A DNA stretch of 7,052 nt from a virus (IMGVR_UViG_2778261417_000006), one strand, 5' to 3'. Counted from the first letter of the stretch, positions 1 through 7,052 are shown. A program made the numbers and translations. The notes: generated by a model from the letters alone, not told the origin.

Positions 1-130
1 GAATCTGAGGCAGCACCTGGCACGGCTGGGACGGAAGTCGCTGTCGTTCTCAAAATCGGTGGAGCTGCATGACAAAGTCATCGGGCATTATCTGAACATA
101 AAACACTATCAGTAAGTTGGAGTCATTACC
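1..130 (+). mobile_element. IS1 right end, partial and window-truncated (3' end of insB plus terminal inverted repeat)
   Basis: Positions 2-115 translate to [37 protein letters not shown]-stop, the InsB C-terminus as I recall it. The element ends ...CTATCAGTAAGTTGGAGTCATTACC at 130, matching the IS1 terminal repeat. Bases 1-130 are the exact reverse complement of 6923-7052. Confidence 0.93.
2..115 (+). CDS. insB: IS1 transposase InsB, C-terminal fragment (gene continues upstream of the window)
   Basis: Open frame from the window edge to TAA at 113-115; the translation matches the InsB C-terminus from memory. Confidence 0.85.
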
Positions 131-747
131 GGGATCGCGTTCTTAATATCAATGAAACCGCTGATGTATGGTCTTATGCTTACGGTAATAATTTGCTAAC
201 TCTGTCATCAATATATAACCGAAGAATAATGGTTATCTGCCTGGTGTTTGGTTGCCGACAGCAGGAGGCGAGGCTATCCACCTGGGACGAATGGGATTTA
301 AAAAACTGGGTATGGACAGTCCCAAAAGAGCACAGCAAAAACAAGGAGGCTATAGTAAGGCCTGTTCCTGACGGAATAAAACAATGGATCGTTAATCTTT
401 ACGCAGAAACAAAAAATCGCGGTTATGTTGTCGGTTGTGCTTTGCAAAGGGCGACAATAACAGGGGCTGCAAACAGAATATGCAGGCGTCTTGGTCATGA
501 TACTAATGGCTTGTGGTGCATACATGATTTCAGGCGCACATTTTCCACTACGCTTAATGATATGGGGGCGGATCCTTATATTGTCGAACTTCTTTTAGGT
601 CATAAAGTGAAAGGGGTTGCTGGTGTTTACAATAAAAGCAGGCATATAAAGAAAAAACTTGAGGTGCTTAATATGTGGGTTAATTACCTTAATACGATAG
701 CAGGATTTAACAACAACGTTATCGAGCTTAATAAAGAGGTGGTGTGA
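131..747 (+). pseudogene. int: Tyrosine recombinase (P4-type phage integrase), C-terminal catalytic domain only; 5' part interrupted by IS1
   Basis: The frame of the 193..747 ORF stays open back across the IS1 junction at 130/131, with no native start. The translation carries catalytic-domain hallmarks: ARLSTWDEWDL...WTVPKEHSKNK, box II HDFRRTFSTTL, and LLGH...GVAGVY with the presumed catalytic Tyr. About 205 aa are present against roughly 400 expected. Confidence 0.88.
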
Positions 748-748
748 T

Positions 749-1006
749 ATGGCAATTTATTCTCTTGTTGATGAAAACGATTTGCGCACAATGAAGGACA
801 TTGATCGGTTCATTCGTGAAAAAGAGTGCATAGCACTTACCACGCTGGCAAACTCAACACGCTGGAAAATGGAGCAGGCAGGTAAATTCCCGCGACGTAT
901 CAAGATCGGTGAACGTGCTGCAGGGTATCGACTTTCAGAGGTTCAGGCATGGATCCGTGGTGAGTGGCATCCTGGATGGAAACCTGGAAAAACAAAACAG
1001 CAATAA
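749..1006 (+). CDS. alpA: AlpA-family phage transcriptional regulator / excisionase-like DNA-binding protein
   Basis: 85 aa. The ATG lies 1 nt after the int stop and has an AGAGG-type SD. The motif IALTTLANSTRWKMEQAGKFPRRIKIGERAAGYRLSEVQAWI fits the AlpA/Xis helix-turn-helix signature (GxFP...W...ev..W). Confidence 0.8.
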   Translation: MAIYSLVDENDLRTMKDIDRFIREKECIALTTLANSTRWKMEQAGKFPRRIKIGERAAGYRLSEVQAWIRGEWHPGWKPGKTKQQ

Positions 1007-1018
1007 CCAGTAAATAAT

Positions 1019-1042
1019 GCCCCTCATCACGAGGGGTTTTTT
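1019..1042 (+). terminator. Rho-independent terminator after alpA
   Basis: Stem CCCCTC (1020-1025), loop ATCAC, stem GAGGGG (1031-1036), then TTTTTT (1037-1042). Confidence 0.75.
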
Positions 1043-1062
1043 GTCTATAAGGTAAAAACGCG

Positions 1063-1641
1063 ATGAATAAAAATATTGCCGTGACGGGCAAGGGGTACGC
1101 TCGTCCAGTGAAAAAATTCTGCGATATTCGTGATCTCGTCGTTCTGCGCTTTGATAGTGTGAACGTTCGTGTGGTGTATCTGAACGGCGATCCGTGGTTT
1201 GTTGCAAAAGATGTTTGTGCTGCGCTGGAACTAACCAATTCGCGTACGGCGTTGCAGATGCTTGATGATGATGAAAAGGGAGTAAATTTAACTTACACCC
1301 CAGGAGGAAATCAGAATATGAGAATTATCTCTGAGTCAGGTTTCTACAAACTAATAGCCCGCAGCCGCAAAGCAACGACGCCTGGCACATTTGCTCATCG
1401 TTTCAGTAACTGGGTATTCAGAAATGTGATACCAGGTATCAGAAAAACGGGGACTTATGGTATCCCGTGGGGTGCATTACAGGATTTTTCCCGCCGTAAA
1501 GAGCAATATCAAATAAGTGCCAGCGAGAAGGGGAGGGAGCTACAGGCATGTAAGCGCAAAAAGCGTGAGCTGGAGGAAGAAGAAAAAACGCTGATACGTG
1601 AATATCAGCCTGAGTTTTACTTTGGTAACCGCATTCAGTGA
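1063..1641 (+). CDS. Bro-N domain protein (phage antirepressor-like) with charged C-terminal tail
   Basis: 192 aa. Residues about 35-140 (VRVVYLNGDPWFVAKDVCAALELTNSRTALQMLDDDEKGV...TPGGNQNMRIISESGFYKLIARSRKATTPGTFAHRFSNWVFRNVIPGIRKTGTY) match the Bro-N consensus closely. The C-terminus is K/R/E-rich and looks coiled-coil-like. Confidence 0.85.
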   Translation: MNKNIAVTGKGYARPVKKFCDIRDLVVLRFDSVNVRVVYLNGDPWFVAKDVCAALELTNSRTALQMLDDDEKGVNLTYTPGGNQNMRIISESGFYKLIARSRKATTPGTFAHRFSNWVFRNVIPGIRKTGTYGIPWGALQDFSRRKEQYQISASEKGRELQACKRKKRELEEEEKTLIREYQPEFYFGNRIQ

Positions 1642-1650
1642 CAAAACAAA

Positions 1651-1671
1651 GGCGACCGCAAAAGGGTCGCC
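1651..1671 (-). terminator. Hairpin with T-run on the minus strand; candidate terminator for the leftward unit, convergent with the Bro-N gene
   Basis: GGCGACC (1651-1657), loop GCAAAAG, GGTCGCC (1665-1671). The + strand A-rich tract just upstream (1641-1650) reads as a U-run on the minus strand. Confidence 0.5.
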
Positions 1672-1737
1672 AGTGGGAACAAGGGAAAACAAAAGCATCA
1701 CCAACAATGCCACATTTGCGGCTGGTGGGCAATGTGA

Positions 1738-1917
1738 TCAGTCAGATTTGGTTCGTTCCAAGGTTTGCAACGAGAGCTTTTTCCTGTGCTCTTTAAGGAA
1801 TTTCTCAAGAGCAAACGAACAAGGTGCGAATCTTTCTGATTCATGTTCATGCGCTATATTTTTGCGTCGTCTCTTACGAGTTGGTGATGGTGTTTTGGTT
1901 GATTCTGTGTCGCTCAT
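1738..1917 (-). CDS. Hypothetical small basic protein, 59 aa (absent from the supplied ORF track)
   Basis: Hand translation of the minus strand gives MSDTESTKTPSPTRKRRRKNIAHEHESERFAPCSFALEKFLKEHRKKLSLQTLERTKSD-stop. It sits 57 bp downstream of the 101-aa minus-strand gene, has an AGGA about 8 nt upstream, and the minus-oriented hairpin lies about 70 bp beyond its stop. Confidence 0.4.
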   Translation of the reverse strand: MSDTESTKTPSPTRKRRRKNIAHEHESERFAPCSFALEKFLKEHRKKLSLQTLERTKSD

Positions 1918-1974
1918 GGTGCTGTCCTGTAAAGCAATGCGCCTGCGTTCCTCAAACTATGGCGCTGATATTGG

Positions 1975-2280
1975 CTATTCATGCTCTTTGACCTTGCGTC
2001 GCTGGAGTTCTTCACGCGCGACGGTGACGAGTTGCCCGATCTCCTCGGCTGCTTTGATGCCGATTTGTTCGACCTTAGCCAGGGCATCCAGTGACGACAC
2101 AAGGGGATTTTCTCCGCTGCCTTCTGCTTGGCGGCGGGCTATTTCTCCGCGCATGGCGGTTACGATAAATCCGGCATTGCTTTCACCGTCCAGCTTAACG
2201 GATTCCATCCCTTGCATAACATCTAGTGGGACTCTGACAGTTGTCAGTTGTGATTTTGCGTTTTTGTTAGCCGTTGCCAT
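1975..2280 (-). CDS. Hypothetical 101-aa protein; candidate DNA-binding regulator of the element (possibly ribbon-helix-helix-like)
   Basis: AGGAG SD 8 nt upstream of the ATG. It is transcribed divergently from the rightward operon across a palindromic operator region. The N-terminal segment TTVRVPLDVMQGMESVKL is compatible with a beta-strand plus helix RHH fold, but the family is not recognised with certainty. Confidence 0.5.
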   Translation of the reverse strand: MATANKNAKSQLTTVRVPLDVMQGMESVKLDGESNAGFIVTAMRGEIARRQAEGSGENPLVSSLDALAKVEQIGIKAAEEIGQLVTVAREELQRRKVKEHE

Positions 2281-2301
2281 TTCTGAAACTCCTAATCATC
2301 G

Positions 2302-2379
2302 GTGTGTTTCAGTATACACAAAAAAAGAAATACAAAAAGCCTTGACGTGTGTTTCATGCGCTCATAACATGAAACACAC
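2302..2379. promoter_or_regulatory. Divergent promoter/operator region
   Basis: Perfect inverted repeat GTGTGTTTCATG (2347-2358) / CATGAAACACAC (2368-2379) with a 9-bp spacer. A third half-site GTGTGTTTCA sits at 2302-2311. Candidate + promoter: -35 TTGACG (2342-2347), 17 bp, -10 TAACAT (2365-2370). Candidate minus promoter: -10 TATACT (complement of 2311-2316). Confidence 0.6.
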
Positions 2380-2470
2380 CGAAAGGATTGTTGAAATACA
2401 AAGAGCAACGCCCCGCAGTGCTGGGAACACATACGGGGCGTCTAACCAACAACGTAAACTAGGAGCCGTT

Positions 2471-2668
2471 ATGGTTGCTGTAAATCATATACCACACCTT
2501 GTACACACACAAACGGCCTTTGTGTGGCGTTTTCTGGCACTGAGTGCCGGAGAATCTCAAATCATCCACGTAACCGCCTGGACGGAACGCGAAGCGCGTA
2601 GCCGTTGCCCGTCCGGTTGTGTTGCTGTATTCGCTGCAAAAATCCGCCAGGGAGTGAGTCATGCTTAA
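2471..2668 (+). CDS. Hypothetical protein, 65 aa; likely first gene of the rightward operon
   Basis: AGGAG SD 5 nt upstream of ATG 2471. Its stop overlaps the start of the next ORF by 8 nt. It is the 3' end of the long 1598..2668 stop-free frame in the ORF track. Confidence 0.45.
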   Translation: MVAVNHIPHLVHTQTAFVWRFLALSAGESQIIHVTAWTEREARSRCPSGCVAVFAAKIRQGVSHA

Positions 2669-2846
2669 AACCTTCCGTGTATTTGCCCGAGCTGTTAACC
2701 CAATAGGCCACACAATTGGTATCGCTCAGAATGTGAAGGCTGTTAATGTTCAGACGGCTATTGCTGCGGTGAGAAGCGAATCATCAGAATATGGCTTATC
2801 ACAAGTCATTATTTCAGCAGTGTATGAATTAAAAGAGGTGCATTAA
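2661..2846 (+). CDS. Hypothetical protein, 61 aa
   Basis: GGGAG SD; stop TAA overlaps the next ATG as TAATG (translational coupling). Confidence 0.5.
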   Translation: MLKTFRVFARAVNPIGHTIGIAQNVKAVNVQTAIAAVRSESSEYGLSQVIISAVYELKEVH

Positions 2847-3037
2847 TGCAGGAAATTACATTACACGAAGCCGCTGAACGTGCGCACCAGACAGAAATTA
2901 TTTGCCGCCTTCTTGAGGTATACCCGAACAAAATTACAGATGCTGATATATCCGCACTGGCGAGCCTACTGGCGCGTCTTTCGGGAAGTGTCGCTAGTTT
3001 TTTGATTGAGGAAGAAAGTAAGCTGGTGGGGGATTAA
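2846..3037 (+). CDS. Hypothetical acidic protein, 63 aa
   Basis: AGAGG SD; stop TAA is immediately followed by the next ATG (coupled). Confidence 0.5.
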   Translation: MQEITLHEAAERAHQTEIICRLLEVYPNKITDADISALASLLARLSGSVASFLIEEESKLVGD

Positions 3038-3259
3038 ATGAATACAGAACGGGAAGTCTTTTTTAAATTGTTAGCATGTGCAGAAAGTTCATTAACTTTA
3101 AATAATTCAGCAAAAGCAATATTAAATATGTGGCTTGATTGCATAAATGACAATGAAGATGCAAATATTGCTTATGGCCTGTTGTCACTTATTGATGAAT
3201 CAGCAGAAAAACTCAATGACGCAATAAATAGTGCCCTGCTATCAAATAAGTCGAGTTAA
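3038..3259 (+). CDS. Hypothetical acidic protein, 73 aa, encoded in a markedly AT-rich segment (candidate moron)
   Basis: GGGGGA SD 4 nt upstream. By eye this ORF is about one-third GC, well below the flanking genes. Confidence 0.5.
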   Translation: MNTEREVFFKLLACAESSLTLNNSAKAILNMWLDCINDNEDANIAYGLLSLIDESAEKLNDAINSALLSNKSS

Positions 3260-3276
3260 GTCGAGGAATAAATAAT

Positions 3277-3576
3277 ATGGAAATGAAAAATTCTGGCTTT
3301 ATTGCCAGCGGCCCCGCTCGACCTGAATTTATGAACGGCGATATTTACCGCGATAAATACGGCGGCACGGTAACGATTAAAGGCGTGGCAGAACGGCGCA
3401 TCACTTACCGCCGTGAGGGGTATAGCTATGACTGCGTGATGCCTGTTTATCAGTTCCGGCGTGATTTTTCCCTGGTATATGCCGCACCCCGCAGTAAGCC
3501 CATCAGCAGGGAAAAAGCGTGGGGAAATATCCAGAAAATGAAAACCATGATTAACGGATTCAGAGGTAAAAAATGA
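3277..3576 (+). CDS. Hypothetical protein, 99 aa; immediately upstream of and overlapping the primase-like gene
   Basis: GAGGA SD; ATGA start/stop overlap with the 584-aa ORF. Confidence 0.55.
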   Translation: MEMKNSGFIASGPARPEFMNGDIYRDKYGGTVTIKGVAERRITYRREGYSYDCVMPVYQFRRDFSLVYAAPRSKPISREKAWGNIQKMKTMINGFRGKK

Positions 3577-5327
3577 AACTGGCACCGAACGTAAAACAGC
3601 AGTCACGCGGCATAAAACACAAAGGAACAGAAGTAATTATTTTTGCGGGTAGTGATGCCTGGGCACACGCGAAACAATGGCAGGAACATGATGCGCGTAT
3701 GGCCGGAGATAATGAGCCTCCTGTGTGGCTTGGGGAGCAGCAGCTATCCGAACTGGATAATCTGCAAATTGTGCCGGAAGGCCGAAAATCAGCACGCATA
3801 TACAGGGCCGGATATCTTGCGCCTGTAATGATAAAGGCGATTGGTCAGAAGCTGGCGGCAGCAGGCGTACAGGATGCAAATTTTTATCCTGAGGGTATGC
3901 ACGGCCAGGAGGTGCAGAACTGGCGCGAATATCTGGCCCGTGAACGCCAGAATCTTTCTGATGGTCTGGTCATTGAGCTTCCGGTAAAGCAAAAGGCGCA
4001 ACTTTCGCAGATGGCGGACAGTGAGCGCGCGCAGTTGCTTGCCGATCGCTTTGATGGCGTTTGCGTACATCCTGAAAGTGAAATCGTTCACGTATGGCGC
4101 GGCGGGGTATGGTGTCCGGTCAGCACAATGGAACTTAGCCGCGAAATGGTGGCGATCTATTCAGAGCACAGGGCCACTTTCAGCAAGCGCGTAATCAATA
4201 ACGCCGTGGAAGCGTTAAAAGTTATTGCCGAACCAATGGGCGAGCCGTCTGGCGATTTGCTGCCGTTCGCCAATGGTGCGCTTGACCTGAAAACGGGGGA
4301 ATTTTCCCCGCACACGCCGGAGAACTGGATCACCACGCACAACGGCATTGAGTACACGCCACCAGCACCAGGGGAGAACATCCGCGATAACGCGCCAAAC
4401 TTTCATAAATGGCTTGAGCACGCAGCCGGAAAAGACCCGCGCAAGATGATGCGTATATGTGCCGCGCTGTACATGATTATGGCGAACCGGTACGACTGGC
4501 AGATGTTTATTGAGGCCACCGGAGACGGCGGGAGCGGTAAAAGTACATTCACACACATAGCCAGCCTTCTGGCAGGGAAACAGAACACGGTAAGCGCTGA
4601 AATGACATCGCTTGATGATGCTGGTGGACGTGCGCAGGTTGTCGGGAGTCGTCTTATCGTCCTGGCTGACCAGCCGAAATATACAGGCGAAGGAACGGGC
4701 ATCAAGAAAATCACAGGCGGCGACCCCGTGGAAATTAACCCGAAATATGAAAAGCGTTTCACGGCGGTAATCAGGGCGGTGGTGCTGGCGACCAACAACA
4801 ACCCGATGATATTCACCGAACGGGCCGGAGGTGTGGCACGTCGTCGCGTGATTTTCCGTTTCGACAATATCGTCAGTGAGGCCGAAAAAGACAGGGAGCT
4901 ACCGGAAAAGATTGCGGCTGAAATCCCCGTTATTATCCGCCGATTGCTGGCGAACTTTACCGACCCTGAGAAGGCACGGGCTTTACTACTGGAACAGCGT
5001 GACGGTGATGAAGCACTGGCAATAAAGCAACAGACGGATCCGGTTATTGAGTTTTGCCAGTTCCTGAATTTTCTGGAGGAAGCGCGCGGCCTGATGATGG
5101 GTGGCGGTGGTGATTCAGTGAAGTACACGACCAGGAACAGCCTTTACCGCGTCTATCTGGCGTTTATGGCATACGCGGGCAGGAGCAAACCGCTAAACGT
5201 GGCTGAGTTCAGCAAGGCCATGAAGCCAGCGGCGAAAGTTTACGGGCATGAATATATTACGCGAAAAGTTAAGGGAGTAACGCAGACCAACGCAATTACA
5301 ACAGACGATTGCGACGCGTTTTTATAA
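3573..5327 (+). CDS. Replication protein: P4-family primase C-terminal domain / D5-like SF3 helicase
   Basis: 584 aa. Walker A GDGGSGKST is encoded at 4521-4547. The block LIVLADQP...KKITGGDPVEINPKYEKRFTAVIRAVVLATNNNPMIFTERAGGVARRRVIFRF resembles the phage/plasmid primase P4-family C-terminal signature. GAGG SD 6 nt upstream. Confidence 0.82.
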   Translation: MKLAPNVKQQSRGIKHKGTEVIIFAGSDAWAHAKQWQEHDARMAGDNEPPVWLGEQQLSELDNLQIVPEGRKSARIYRAGYLAPVMIKAIGQKLAAAGVQDANFYPEGMHGQEVQNWREYLARERQNLSDGLVIELPVKQKAQLSQMADSERAQLLADRFDGVCVHPESEIVHVWRGGVWCPVSTMELSREMVAIYSEHRATFSKRVINNAVEALKVIAEPMGEPSGDLLPFANGALDLKTGEFSPHTPENWITTHNGIEYTPPAPGENIRDNAPNFHKWLEHAAGKDPRKMMRICAALYMIMANRYDWQMFIEATGDGGSGKSTFTHIASLLAGKQNTVSAEMTSLDDAGGRAQVVGSRLIVLADQPKYTGEGTGIKKITGGDPVEINPKYEKRFTAVIRAVVLATNNNPMIFTERAGGVARRRVIFRFDNIVSEAEKDRELPEKIAAEIPVIIRRLLANFTDPEKARALLLEQRDGDEALAIKQQTDPVIEFCQFLNFLEEARGLMMGGGGDSVKYTTRNSLYRVYLAFMAYAGRSKPLNVAEFSKAMKPAAKVYGHEYITRKVKGVTQTNAITTDDCDAFL

Positions 5328-5340
5328 TTTTTTGTAAAAG

Positions 5341-5564
5341 CCATCTACCCCATCTACCTGAACGAAATAAACGCATATTATTCAACATGATAAGTGGGTA
5401 TAGGGCTAGGTAGAAGGCTAATAAAAGCTCTCTACCTCTTCTACCTGATTTTATCAGTTTCAGGTAGCAGGGTAGACGGCAGGTAGAGGAGTCAAAAAAG
5501 CTATCTACCCGCTGAAAGCGGCGCCATTACTGACATGATGAGCATTCGGGTAGATGGGTAGAGG
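5341..5564. repeat. Iteron cluster; candidate origin of replication
   Basis: Eleven copies of the pentamer CTACC/GGTAG in 224 bp. Tandem CCATCTACC x2 at 5341-5358 is mirrored by GGGTAGATGGGTAGAGG at 5548-5564. Other copies: 5409-5414, 5431-5436, 5440-5445, 5463-5467, 5471-5475, 5482-5486, 5504-5509. An AT-rich core lies at 5359-5394. Confidence 0.65.
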
Positions 5565-5613
5565 GGGGGAGGCACAACTAAAAACTTTTTAAACGAGGGG
5601 GGGGTGAAAATAA

Positions 5614-5928
5614 ATGCGCATACATAAAAATCACTTAACAAACATGCCAGCCGAAAACATGAATCAGGGGCGACAAATGACCAAAATTCGCAGAGACAGA
5701 ACACAGGCAAAATATAAAGCGTTAGACATGACAGAGCTTTCCTTAAAGGTGGCAATCAAAGCGATAGACCACCACACACGGGCAGGATACGCGAAGGAAC
5801 ATCCCGACCTGATAAGCGCATTCATGACCACAGCAGCGGCAAACTTTGCCACGCTGACAGAACGGGAGATTGCCGAAGCGGAACAGGTGACAACCATCAA
5901 TGTTAAAACCGGAGAGCAGACAGCATGA
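5614..5928 (+). CDS. Hypothetical protein (104 aa from ATG 5614; alternative start at 5677 gives 83 aa)
   Basis: Its stop overlaps the SSB start (ATGA). The 5677 start has an AGGGG SD at 6-nt spacing; the 5614 start follows a G8 tract. Confidence 0.55.
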   Translation: MRIHKNHLTNMPAENMNQGRQMTKIRRDRTQAKYKALDMTELSLKVAIKAIDHHTRAGYAKEHPDLISAFMTTAAANFATLTEREIAEAEQVTTINVKTGEQTA

Positions 5929-6347
5929 CAGCACAGATAGCGGCTTACGGGCGGCTGGTGGCTGACCCGCAGTTAAAGACCACCAGCAAAGGGACACAAA
6001 TGGCGATGGCGAGTATGGCGGTTCCCCTGCCGTGCAGCCAGGCAGATGACGGAACGGCGACGATGTGGTTATCCGTCCTGGCGTTTGGCAGACAGGCCGA
6101 CGCACTGGCAAAACACCACAAAGGCGAACTGGTGAGCGTGGCGGGTAACATGCAGGTAAGCCAGTGGACAGGCCAGAACGGCGAAACGCGGCGGGGCTGG
6201 CAGGTTATCGCAGACAGCGTAATCAGTGCGCGAACGGCGCGACCGGGCGGCAAAAAAGGCCAGCAGGGGCAGGCCACTGACGCACTGAACAGGGCAAAAC
6301 AACAGTCGGGGAATGATGATCCGTACGGCGATAATATACCGTTTTAA
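5925..6347 (+). CDS. ssb: Single-stranded DNA-binding protein (SSB family)
   Basis: 140 aa. The OB-fold region aligns with E. coli SSB by eye (GRL.ADP...W..V.AFG..A......KG..V...G......W). The C-terminus ends ...DDPYGDNIPF, resembling the conserved SSB tail DDDIPF. Confidence 0.85.
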   Translation: MTAQIAAYGRLVADPQLKTTSKGTQMAMASMAVPLPCSQADDGTATMWLSVLAFGRQADALAKHHKGELVSVAGNMQVSQWTGQNGETRRGWQVIADSVISARTARPGGKKGQQGQATDALNRAKQQSGNDDPYGDNIPF

Positions 6348-6364
6348 ATTCTGCAAACAAAAAG

Positions 6365-6393
6365 ATGCCGGAAAAAAATAGATTTTCCGGCAT
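6365..6393. terminator. Perfect 11-bp-arm hairpin downstream of ssb
   Basis: ATGCCGGAAAA (6365-6375), 7-nt loop, TTTTCCGGCAT (6383-6393). The U-run is on the minus-strand side; termination on the + strand is plausible but weaker. Confidence 0.5.
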
Positions 6394-6564
6394 GCTACAT
6401 AAATCCCGACCAAAGGAAGTAAATACATTAACACGAATTATCAGCACTGAAGTTGTTACGGCATATTTTATACAACATTGCACTTGGTTGCATGTGTTCG
6501 CATAGCAGACATCGGTAATAGAATATATTCACAATTATTTGTAATGAATGTAAAGAGGATGAGT

Positions 6565-6927
6565 ATGGTTGATTTATATTCGCCTACACAGCTTGTGCAG
6601 GTGGCTAATGCTGAAGATGTGCAAAAAAAATTAAATGCGTTGTTTACCAGTTTGTTTTTCACTCGCTCGGTAATGTTTGAATCGAGAGACATTATTCTTG
6701 ATACGATCGACGATCCAAATATCCCGATCGCGGCGTTTTGCTCTCCTATGGTGGGCAGTAAAGTTTCACGAGATGAGGGATACGAATCAAAAACAATTCG
6801 TCCAGGTTATATGAAGCCGAAAAGCAGCATTGATCCAAATAAGTTAGCTGTGCGCCCTGCTGGTGTGTCACCTGAGCAATACAATGCTTTTGGGGCGCGT
6901 AATATTAAAGTTAAACAGGCGAGGTAA
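6565..6927 (+). pseudogene. Lambda gpE-like major capsid protein, N-terminal about 120 codons only; truncated by IS1
   Basis: The translation from 6565 (MVDLYSPTQLVQVANAEDVQKKLNALFTSLFFTRS...FCSPMVGSKVSRDEGYESKTIRPGYMKPK...) resembles the lambda E N-terminus as I recall it (LFLRLFFRES...YVSPIVSGEVIRSRGG...TPGYVKPK). AAGAGG SD 6 nt upstream. The stop TAA (6925-6927) is supplied by the IS1 terminal sequence GGTAATGA. An alternative start at 6559 (MSMVDLY...) has no SD spacing. Confidence 0.65.
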
Positions 6928-7052
6928 TGACTCCAACTTACTGATAGTGTTTTATGTTCAGATAATGCCCGATGACTTTGTCATGCAGCTCCACCGATTT
7001 TGAGAACGACAGCGACTTCCGTCCCAGCCGTGCCAGGTGCTGCCTCAGATTC
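6923..7052 (-). mobile_element. IS1 right end, partial and window-truncated, inverted relative to the copy at 1-130
   Basis: Exact reverse complement of 1-130; begins GGTAATGACTCCAACTTACTGATAG. Confidence 0.93.
6938..7051 (-). CDS. insB: IS1 transposase InsB, C-terminal fragment (gene continues beyond the window)
   Basis: Mirror image of 2-115; the stop is the complement of 6938-6940. Confidence 0.85.

What the first reader, a model, noticed from the sequence alone, without database searches (positions are those of the whole stretch)
2471..3576. Translationally coupled operon of six small ORFs upstream of the replication gene, including an AT-rich insert
Five consecutive gene junctions are overlapping or abutting (8-nt overlap, TAATG, TAA-ATG, ATGA), and every start has a Shine-Dalgarno sequence. 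That is strong evidence for real genes despite sizes of 61-99 aa. The 73-aa gene at 3038-3259 is far more AT-rich than its neighbours, suggesting recent acquisition as a moron. Two of the products are small acidic helical proteins, a profile seen in anti-defence and phage-interference proteins. The 99-aa gene occupies the position that epsilon (the helper derepressor) holds immediately upstream of the primase gene in P4.
Basis: partly seen in the sequence, partly recalled or inferred. Interest (0 to 1): 0.6.

Follow-up and report, generated by a model that had tools for sequence, protein, structure and literature searches.

The report
Phage-satellite early operon of small genes
This is a real, tightly packed operon of five (not six) small genes at the head of the replication operon of an E. 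coli phage satellite. It is a common arrangement of partly known function, and the AT-rich gene is a standard member of it, not a recent add-on.

Summary
The sequence features are largely as described. There are five small ORFs (65, 61, 63, 73 and 99 aa) plus the primase gene, all with Shine-Dalgarno motifs. Four of the five junctions overlap or abut; the fifth is a 17-nt spacer. The 73-aa gene has 32% GC.

The window is a helper-embedded PICI satellite (int, alpA, Bro, primase, SSB, capsid). This copy is truncated by two IS1 elements.

The block Icd-like, variable small genes, 73-aa family, DUF4222, replicase recurs in 19 other E. coli loci. It is the counterpart of the P4 left operon.

The "moron" reading fails. 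The 73-aa family sits at the same position in every relative examined, and all alleles are AT-rich. The window carries a divergent allele exchanged by recombination.

The epsilon analogy also fails. In P4, orf151 and orf106 separate epsilon from alpha, and DUF4222 is unrelated to epsilon.

A preprint mapped suppressors of phage-triggered cell death in E. coli ECOR61 to an Icd-like gene and to 186-nt and 192-nt genes with the same overlaps as here.

DUF4222 models as a Tudor/KOW-like barrel. It is always coupled to the replicase and absent from 50,697 phage genomes.

Verdict: ordinary member of a known kind, with biochemically uncharacterised small proteins.

The parts
1975..2280 (-). Divergently transcribed YlcI/YnfO-family gene (101 aa), the candidate repressor of the operon
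   Evidence: NF041551 E=1.6e-17 and phrog_6522. Strong third-position substitution bias. Its positional equivalent in L009 is annotated as a HicB-family antitoxin. The repressor role is inferred.
2299..2382 (+). Promoter/operator region: box O1 TCGGTGTGTTTCA (2299-2311), -35 TTGACG (2342-2347), box O2 GTGTGTTTCA (2347-2356), -10 TAACAT (2365-2370), inverted box O3 TGAAACACACCGA (2370-2382)
   Evidence: Promoter-like site. Perfect 13-nt inverted repeat and 10-nt direct repeat. The -35 is conserved while the boxes differ between elements.
2408..2448 (+). Conserved 5'-leader RNA hairpin (2408-2441) followed by invariant TCTAACCA (2441-2448)
   Evidence: 93.8% of cells paired against at most 53% with slid partners. 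Compensatory changes at 3 pairs across 12 distinct leaders. Present in the MFE and centroid folds.
2471..2668 (+). Icd-like gene (65 aa), first gene of the operon; homologue of the C-terminal domain of the P4 Kil/Eta ORF
   Evidence: NF033153 63.7 bits against a cut-off of 25. The P4 'cI137' ORF is Ash plus the same Icd-like domain. SD GGAG at 2462-2465.
2661..2846 (+). 61-aa basic protein (phrog_3672); 8-nt overlap with icd
   Evidence: Same length and overlap as a Tn5 suppressor gene in ECOR61.
2846..3037 (+). 63-aa acidic protein (phrog_1478); TAATG junction
   Evidence: Same length and overlap as a Tn5 suppressor gene in ECOR61.
3038..3259 (+). 73-aa acidic helical-hairpin protein (phrog_2196); AT-rich allele of a family that is always directly upstream of DUF4222
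3277..3576 (+). DUF4222 protein (99 aa, pI 10.1): Tudor/KOW/SH3-like beta-barrel plus a basic C-terminal helix; ATGA overlap with the primase gene
3573..5327 (+). D5_N/DUF5906 P4-family primase-helicase, the distal gene of the operon
5344..5562 (.). Iteron cluster (10 TCTACC hexamers in both orientations); putative ori downstream of the primase gene
   Evidence: All 10 copies in the window lie here; chance mean 1.4. GN-PICI ori lies downstream of pri (PMC10111431).

Best explanation
The segment is the promoter-proximal half of the early (replication) operon of a Gram-negative PICI of the helper-embedded type (HE-PICI). It is organised like the left operon of satellite P4.

Inferred regulation. 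One sigma-70-type promoter (2342-2370) is flanked and overlapped by three element-specific operator boxes. It is probably held off by the divergently encoded YlcI/YnfO-family protein. When it fires, it produces a transcript with a conserved leader hairpin.

Shown anatomy. Six cistrons follow and are translated as a coupled train: Icd-like, 61 aa, 63 aa, 73 aa, DUF4222, primase.

Inferred functions. The Icd-like protein is a homologue of the P4 Kil/Eta C-terminal domain and, at profile level, of P1 Icd, which binds FtsZ. It most likely arrests host cell division and is the toxic output of the operon. The middle genes (61 and 63 aa here; other cassettes in other elements) are exchangeable modulators. 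In E. coli ECOR61, genes of identical size and geometry are required, together with Icd-like and the rest of the six-gene block, for cell death triggered by a T7-family accessory protein. The 73-aa helical hairpin and DUF4222 are constant partners of the replicase whatever its type (primase, DUF927 or RepA helicase). They most likely act as protein-protein adaptors for satellite replication or its coupling to expression.
For: Element identity: int, alpA, Bro-N, primase, SSB and capsid gene. Identical copies lie inside a lambdoid portal gene. This matches the four-zone HE-PICI organisation of PMC10111431.

Operon conservation: 9 diverged loci and 10 further contexts.

Coupling and SDs. No + strand promoter, and only one weak + strand terminator-like site (2506-2526, inside icd), between 2471 and 3700.

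Operators and leader hairpin.

Icd-like homology to P4 and to the N15, PY54 and D6 icd loci. P1 Icd targets FtsZ through a 40-aa core (PMC11897509).

ECOR61 genetics: Tn5 suppressors in an Icd-like gene, a 186-nt gene with an 8-nt overlap and a 192-nt gene with a 1-nt overlap. [quoted passage not shown] An analogous result exists for a P4-like element in ECOR15.

DUF4222-replicase coupling in distant relatives. Absence of DUF4222 from 50,697 phage genomes.
Confidence: 0.6

Rival explanations
1. One reading: the small genes, especially the AT-rich 73-aa gene, are recently acquired accessory cargo (morons) encoding anti-defence or helper/competitor-interference proteins. The 99-aa gene is a positional analogue of the P4 derepressor epsilon.
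For: Two products are small, acidic and helical. The middle of the block shows cassette turnover between elements. The 73-aa allele is a recombinational replacement relative to EDL933. Nonsynonymous changes match or exceed synonymous ones among close alleles of the 73-aa family (small counts).
Against: The 73-aa family is present at the same position in all 19 relatives examined. It abuts its neighbour, with no promoter or terminator of its own. The block stays constant while the upstream Bro zone varies. There are no PADLOC or Pfam anti-defence hits. Epsilon is not adjacent to alpha in P4, and DUF4222 is not an epsilon family member.
Confidence: 0.1
2. All the small proteins are replication accessory factors of the satellite (origin binding, helicase loading, copy-number control). 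Toxicity is only a side effect of runaway replication.
For: They are co-translated with the replicase. DUF4222 is coupled by a 4-nt overlap to three unrelated replicase types, including in distant relatives. An iteron ori lies just downstream. In ECOR61 the primase-containing six-gene block was needed for the phenotype.
Against: The first gene belongs to a family whose founding member (P1 Icd) binds FtsZ rather than DNA. Removal of Icd-like abolished death in ECOR61. The middle cassettes are interchangeable between elements that share the same replicase type, which is unexpected for core replication factors.
Confidence: 0.2
3. The block is a dedicated abortive-infection defence system (phage sensor plus Icd-like toxin) that merely resides in satellites and has no role in the satellite life cycle.
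For: ECOR61 and ECOR15 show cell death triggered by phage accessory proteins and suppressed by insertions in these genes.
Against: The block is inseparable from the replicase gene in every locus. It occupies the position of the P4 left operon, which is needed for the P4 lytic and plasmid cycle. It has no PADLOC model. Reconstitution outside the native host gave only a muted effect.
Confidence: 0.1

Closest known systems
Left (early) operon of satellite phage P4: Kil/Eta (Ash + Icd-like ORF), epsilon, orf151, orf106, alpha primase
   Same: It follows the alpA/vis homologue. Its first gene carries the same Icd-like domain (NF033153 in both). Several small overlapping ORFs lead into a P4-family primase (TIGR01613). 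Expression is toxic and is linked to immunity control (PMC10111431).
   Different: No Ash domain and no CI/C4/IsrK RNA was detected. A divergent YlcI/YnfO gene and DNA operator boxes are present instead. There are no homologues of epsilon, orf151 or orf106. DUF4222 and the 61-, 63- and 73-aa families are absent from P4. The late region has capsid, decoration and TerS genes, not sid, delta and psu.
ECOR61 prophage-encoded cell-death / superinfection-exclusion locus (Silas et al., bioRxiv 10.1101/2023.04.06.535777)
   Same: An Icd-like gene is followed by a 186-nt gene (8-nt overlap) and a 192-nt gene (1-nt overlap). The locus is a six-gene block ending in a DNA primase.
   Different: The ECOR61 Icd-like CDS is annotated as 121 aa with an N-terminal extension. 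The window has no start codon at that position, so the upstream region differs. Sequence identity was not checked.
Helper-embedded PICIs (HE-PICI, e.g. Eco567.11capE; Tommasini, Mageeney and Williams 2023, PMC10111431) and cf-PICI EcCIEDL933
   Same: The zone order is the same: Integration, Bro, Replication, Late. Identical copies interrupt a lambdoid portal gene. EDL933 carries the same icd, 61-aa and 63-aa genes at 94-100% DNA identity.
   Different: This copy is truncated by two inverted IS1 elements. EDL933 has a different 73-aa-family allele (80 aa), a DUF927 replicase and a full capsid module. The published papers do not analyse the small genes.
P1 immI operon (c4 RNA, icd, ant) and N15/PY54 secondary-immunity loci
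   Same: An Icd-family ORF opens a translationally coupled operon under immunity control (the coupling in P1 is from my own knowledge).
   Different: Here the downstream genes are small satellite-specific proteins and a primase, not an antirepressor. No c4-type RNA was found.

Membership tests
Gram-negative PICI / helper-embedded PICI | Co-oriented int, alpA and primase genes with ori downstream of pri | tested here: met
   int fragment 193-747, alpA 749-1006 (PF05930), primase 3573-5327, iterons 5344-5562. In this copy int is truncated by IS1.
Gram-negative PICI / helper-embedded PICI | Integration inside a late gene of a lambdoid prophage | tested here: met
   Copies identical over 131-6922 split a portal gene (EC93; L011, L013, L018). 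It cannot be seen in the window itself because IS1 elements replace the ends.
Gram-negative PICI / helper-embedded PICI | Helper-dependent induction, excision and packaging | not testable with these tools
   Needs induction experiments.
P4-like satellite | sid, delta and psu capsid-hijacking module and the epsilon derepressor | tested here: not met
   The late region of the intact copy has lambda-type capsid E, decoration, AlpA-like HTH and Nu1-type TerS genes. No PF25738 hit for any small protein.
P4-like satellite | CI/C4-type immunity RNA in the operon leader | tested here: not met
   Rfam scan at E <= 1 gave no C4, IsrK or CI match. A different conserved hairpin is present.
Icd family (NF033153; P1 Icd, P4 Kil/Eta) | Match to the Icd-like domain model above its cut-off | tested here: met
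   63.7 bits against a cut-off of 25, covering model positions 1-48. The P4 ORF scores 73.9 bits.
Icd family (NF033153; P1 Icd, P4 Kil/Eta) | Inhibition of cell division / binding of FtsZ | not testable with these tools
   Shown for P1 Icd only (PMC11897509).
DUF4222 (PF13973) | Match above the Pfam gathering score | tested here: met
   83.2 bits against 27.
Moron (independently acquired accessory gene) | Absent from close relatives at the same position | tested here: not met
   The 73-aa family is present directly upstream of DUF4222 in 9 of 9 diverged loci and 10 of 10 further contexts.
Moron (independently acquired accessory gene) | Own promoter and/or terminator | tested here: not met
   TAAATG junction with the upstream gene. 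The only promoter-like hit in 3038-3259 is on the - strand, and there is no + strand terminator.
Moron (independently acquired accessory gene) | Atypical base composition | tested here: met
   GC 0.32 and GC3 0.23 against 0.48 for the window. However, all alleles of the family have low GC (0.38-0.41).
Known anti-phage defence systems (PADLOC) | Match to a defence-system protein model | tested here: not met
   No hit for any of the five proteins at E <= 0.1.

The most novel reading that the evidence does not exclude
The small-gene block may be a phage-sensing module built into the satellite's replication operon. In this reading the exchangeable 61- and 63-aa-type cassettes set which incoming phage protein unleashes the Icd-like FtsZ inhibitor. 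The constant pair, the 73-aa hairpin and the Tudor/KOW-like DUF4222, would tie the replicase (of any type) physically to a host machine such as RNA polymerase or the replisome. That would make DUF4222 a satellite-specific replication-coupling adaptor with no phage counterpart. A further open possibility is that the unusually long open frame upstream of icd (1595-2470) is translated from upstream transcripts, as for P4 eta, to prevent termination.
Probability: 0.15. Interest if true: 0.6.

Novelty: new member of a known kind. Interest (0 to 1): 0.33.

Why it matters
About a quarter of complete E. coli genomes (1442 of 5426) carry at least part of this block next to a satellite replicase. Yet four of its five proteins have no known biochemical function. 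Genetic data from one preprint suggest the block can kill the cell in response to a phage accessory protein. If that holds generally, it is a widespread link between satellite activation and abortive infection. For this particular finding the main value is corrective. The operon is real, but it is core satellite equipment, not newly acquired cargo, and the P4 epsilon analogy does not hold.

Tried and rejected
1. Rfam scan for C4, CI or IsrK immunity RNAs: nothing at E <= 1.
2. PADLOC scan: no hits.
3. DNA search of the phage collection: no match. tblastn of DUF4222 against phages: no match.
4. Homology of DUF4222 to P4 orf151: a weak BLAST hint (E about 0.02) was not confirmed by hhalign (7.8% probability).
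5. The idea that the 61-aa protein is a paralogue of the Icd-like domain because both seem to follow a beta-beta-alpha-beta pattern: hhalign probability 0.1%. Rejected.
6. The long ORF 1598-2668 as a real 356-aa Icd protein with an N-terminal extension. The extension matches no family. The 2281-2470 stretch shows no codon periodicity in substitutions. The translation has an antisense-like S/C/R/L-rich composition. It is treated as probably non-coding, but the conserved openness of the frame is unexplained.
7. Complementarity of the leader-hairpin loop to another site in the window, as for P4 seqA/seqC: none beyond chance.
8. PDB sequence searches for Icd-like, DUF4222, the 63-aa and 73-aa proteins and YlcI/YnfO: nothing significant.
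9. Fold search with the 73-aa hairpin: only generic helical hairpins, E > 0.3.
10. The genome-contig scan with DUF4222 returned only 2 loci because the derived patterns were too narrow.
11. Two large proteins with repeated DUF4222-like stretches (P0156, P0161) turned out to be InlB B-repeat proteins and are uninformative.
12. Sequence verification of the ECOR61 locus was not possible with the collections at hand (one search shows only that the window lacks the start codon of the 121-aa form).

Full report
**1. What is in the sequence**

The + strand between 2471 and 3576 holds five ORFs. They are 2471-2668 (65 aa), 2661-2846 (61 aa), 2846-3037 (63 aa), 3038-3259 (73 aa) and 3277-3576 (99 aa). 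A 584-aa primase gene follows at 3573-5327.

The junctions are an 8-nt overlap, TAATG, TAA|ATG, a 17-nt spacer and ATGA. So four of the five junctions overlap or abut, not five, and there are five small genes, not six.

Each start has a purine-rich Shine-Dalgarno motif. The 73-aa gene has GC 0.32 and GC3 0.23, against 0.41-0.52 for its neighbours. The 63- and 73-aa products are acidic (pI 4.66 and 4.21). The 73-aa product models as a two-helix hairpin, with pLDDT 90.8 in the two best of five models.

The genes are real. PGAP annotates all five in identical copies, and all five match PHROG families. Comparisons with diverged alleles show third-position-biased substitution for icd, orf61, orf63 and DUF4222. 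The 73-aa gene shows no such bias: it is saturated against other alleles, and counts within its related clade are small.

**2. What the element is**

The window carries an integrase fragment, alpA (PF05930), a Bro-N protein, a minus-strand YlcI/YnfO gene, the operon, a D5_N/DUF5906 P4-family primase, SSB and the start of a lambda-E-type capsid gene.

Copies identical over 131-6922 occur in 52 complete E. coli genomes. In EC93 and others the element sits inside the portal gene of a lambdoid prophage. It continues with capsid, decoration, AlpA-like and Nu1-type TerS genes.

This is the helper-embedded PICI (HE-PICI) described by Tommasini, Mageeney and Williams (PMC10111431), with its Integration/Bro/Replication/Late zone order.

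In the window itself, positions 1-130 and 6925-7052 are inverted ends of IS1. They truncate int and the capsid gene, so this copy is an immobilised remnant.

**3. The block is conserved, modular core equipment**

Part of the block matches in 1442 of 5426 complete E. coli genomes, and 86 carry at least 80% of it.

Nine diverged loci share the architecture Icd-like, then 2-4 small genes, then the 73-aa family, then DUF4222, then the replicase. One of these loci is the cf-PICI EcCIEDL933. The replicase is a primase, a DUF927 protein or a RepA helicase.

BLASTP clustering puts Icd-like, the 73-aa family and DUF4222 in all nine loci at fixed positions. The middle is a cassette: either the 61- and 63-aa families or two other families.

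Ten further contexts of the exact 63-aa protein show the same block. The upstream Bro zone varies freely among them.

DUF4222 relatives of only 31-34% identity still overlap a DUF927 or D5_N replicase gene by 4 nt in int+alpA islands.

DUF4222 has no tblastn match in 50,697 phage genomes. Icd-like has only one, in a 16.5-kb "induced prophage". These are satellite genes.

**4. The AT-rich gene**

Its family is present in every relative, always with low GC (0.32-0.41). It abuts the upstream gene and has no promoter or terminator of its own.

The window allele is nevertheless distinct. It is 21-30% identical to other alleles and has only relatives of at least 89% identity in a 5.8-billion-protein database. 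Against EDL933, DNA identity is 94-100% from 2447 to about 2930. It falls to about 40% over 2960-3270 and returns to about 80% in DUF4222. So this is allelic replacement by recombination within a mosaic operon.

Among close alleles of the family, nonsynonymous changes match or exceed synonymous ones. The counts are too small to conclude anything.

**5. Comparison with P4**

In P4 the order is vis/orf88, the "cI137" ORF, epsilon, orf151, orf106 and alpha. Epsilon is therefore not next to alpha.

The P4 cI137 ORF is Ash (PF10554) plus the same Icd-like domain (NF033153) found in the window's first gene. This ORF is the P4 Kil/Eta gene (PMC10111431).

None of the other small proteins has a P4 homologue. 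The BLAST hint of similarity between DUF4222 and orf151 fails under hhalign.

No C4, CI or IsrK RNA is detected.

**6. Regulation (inferred)**

The only + strand promoter-like site is TTGACG-17-TAACAT at 2342-2370. Three copies of an element-specific box surround it: TCGGTGTGTTTCA at 2299, GTGTGTTTCA at 2347, and the inverted copy at 2370-2382.

In other elements the -35 hexamer is conserved, but the boxes are replaced by other repeated sequences. That is the pattern expected of immunity-specific operators. The divergent YlcI/YnfO protein is the obvious candidate repressor; in one relative its place is taken by a HicB-family gene.

The leader carries a hairpin (2408-2441) followed by an invariant TCTAACCA. 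Across 12 distinct leaders, 93.8% of cells pair, against at most 53% for slid partners, and three pairs show compensatory changes. Its role is unknown.

**7. Function**

P1 Icd blocks Z-ring formation by binding FtsZ through a 40-aa core (PMC11897509). Relatives head immunity-controlled operons in N15, PY54 and D6.

Silas et al. (bioRxiv 10.1101/2023.04.06.535777) found that a T7-family accessory protein (orf24) kills E. coli ECOR61. Tn5 suppressors mapped to three genes:
- an Icd-like gene;
- an adjacent 186-nt gene with an 8-nt overlap;
- a 192-nt gene with a 1-nt overlap.

All six linked genes, including a primase, were needed to reconstitute the effect. Removing Icd-like abolished it.

Those sizes and overlaps are exactly those of orf61 and orf63 here. 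I could not compare the sequences, so the equivalence is an inference. A P4-like element in ECOR15 gave an analogous result.

**8. Verdict**

The operon is real and tightly coupled. It is an ordinary, widespread component of a known class of satellites, annotated in RefSeq and partly characterised genetically.

The moron and epsilon interpretations are wrong. The anti-defence idea is untested.

What remains open is the biochemistry of the four small satellite-specific proteins. The meaning of the conserved leader hairpin and of the long open frame upstream of icd is also unresolved.

Noticed in passing
window 1-130 and 6925-7052: Both ends of the window are the same end of IS1 in inverted orientation. 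They truncate the satellite integrase (only about 184 C-terminal aa remain) and the capsid gene. This copy is a composite-transposon-like, immobilised remnant. A related O121 strain has a third IS1 between DUF4222 and the primase gene.
   Followed up: partly
window 1595-2470 (+ frame of icd): The icd reading frame stays open for 292 codons upstream of its ATG. It runs across the promoter region and antisense to ylcI and to a minus-strand ORF. The same holds in L003, L005, L006 and L008 (171-369 codons) but not in L002, L004, L007 or L009. There is no codon periodicity in 2281-2470, and the translation looks antisense-like. P4 eta is a comparably long ORF coupled to the alpA homologue, so whether the open frame matters is unexplained.
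   Followed up: partly
window 2408-2448: A conserved leader hairpin plus an invariant TCTAACCA, with compensatory base changes across 12 distinct satellite leaders. A second copy precedes another ORF in L004 and L006 and lies in the Ash region of L005. It matches no Rfam family.
   Followed up: partly
window 5344-5562: All ten TCTACC hexamers of the window cluster here in both orientations (chance mean 1.4). This is a likely iteron-type origin just downstream of the primase gene.
   Followed up: partly
window 2506-2555: Two strong hairpins lie inside the 5' coding region of icd. One is terminator-like (2506-2526, followed by GCGTTTTCTG). The other has a 12-bp stem (2529-2555). Both occur only in the HTQTAFVWRFLALSAGES variant of icd. 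They might act as a translation-sensitive attenuator.
   Followed up: no
window 1738-1917 (- strand): An unannotated 59-aa basic ORF between the Bro gene and ylcI shows third-position-biased substitutions against L008 (8/10/19). Other elements have annotated small minus-strand genes at this place.
   Followed up: no
L009, L012, L014-L017, L019, L020: The same icd-to-primase block also occurs in satellites with a different integrase that are inserted in the capsid-E gene of lambdoid prophages. Some of them carry defence-like genes (HEPN, TIR, AF_1680) downstream.
   Followed up: no
L005 2336-3634 and L008 1483-2619: PGAP annotates fragments of one continuous open frame as separate "Icd-like" and "ash family" pseudogenes. 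In L005 the frame encodes an N-terminal stretch, an Ash domain and an Icd-like domain, which is an Eta-like architecture starting right after alpA.
   Followed up: partly
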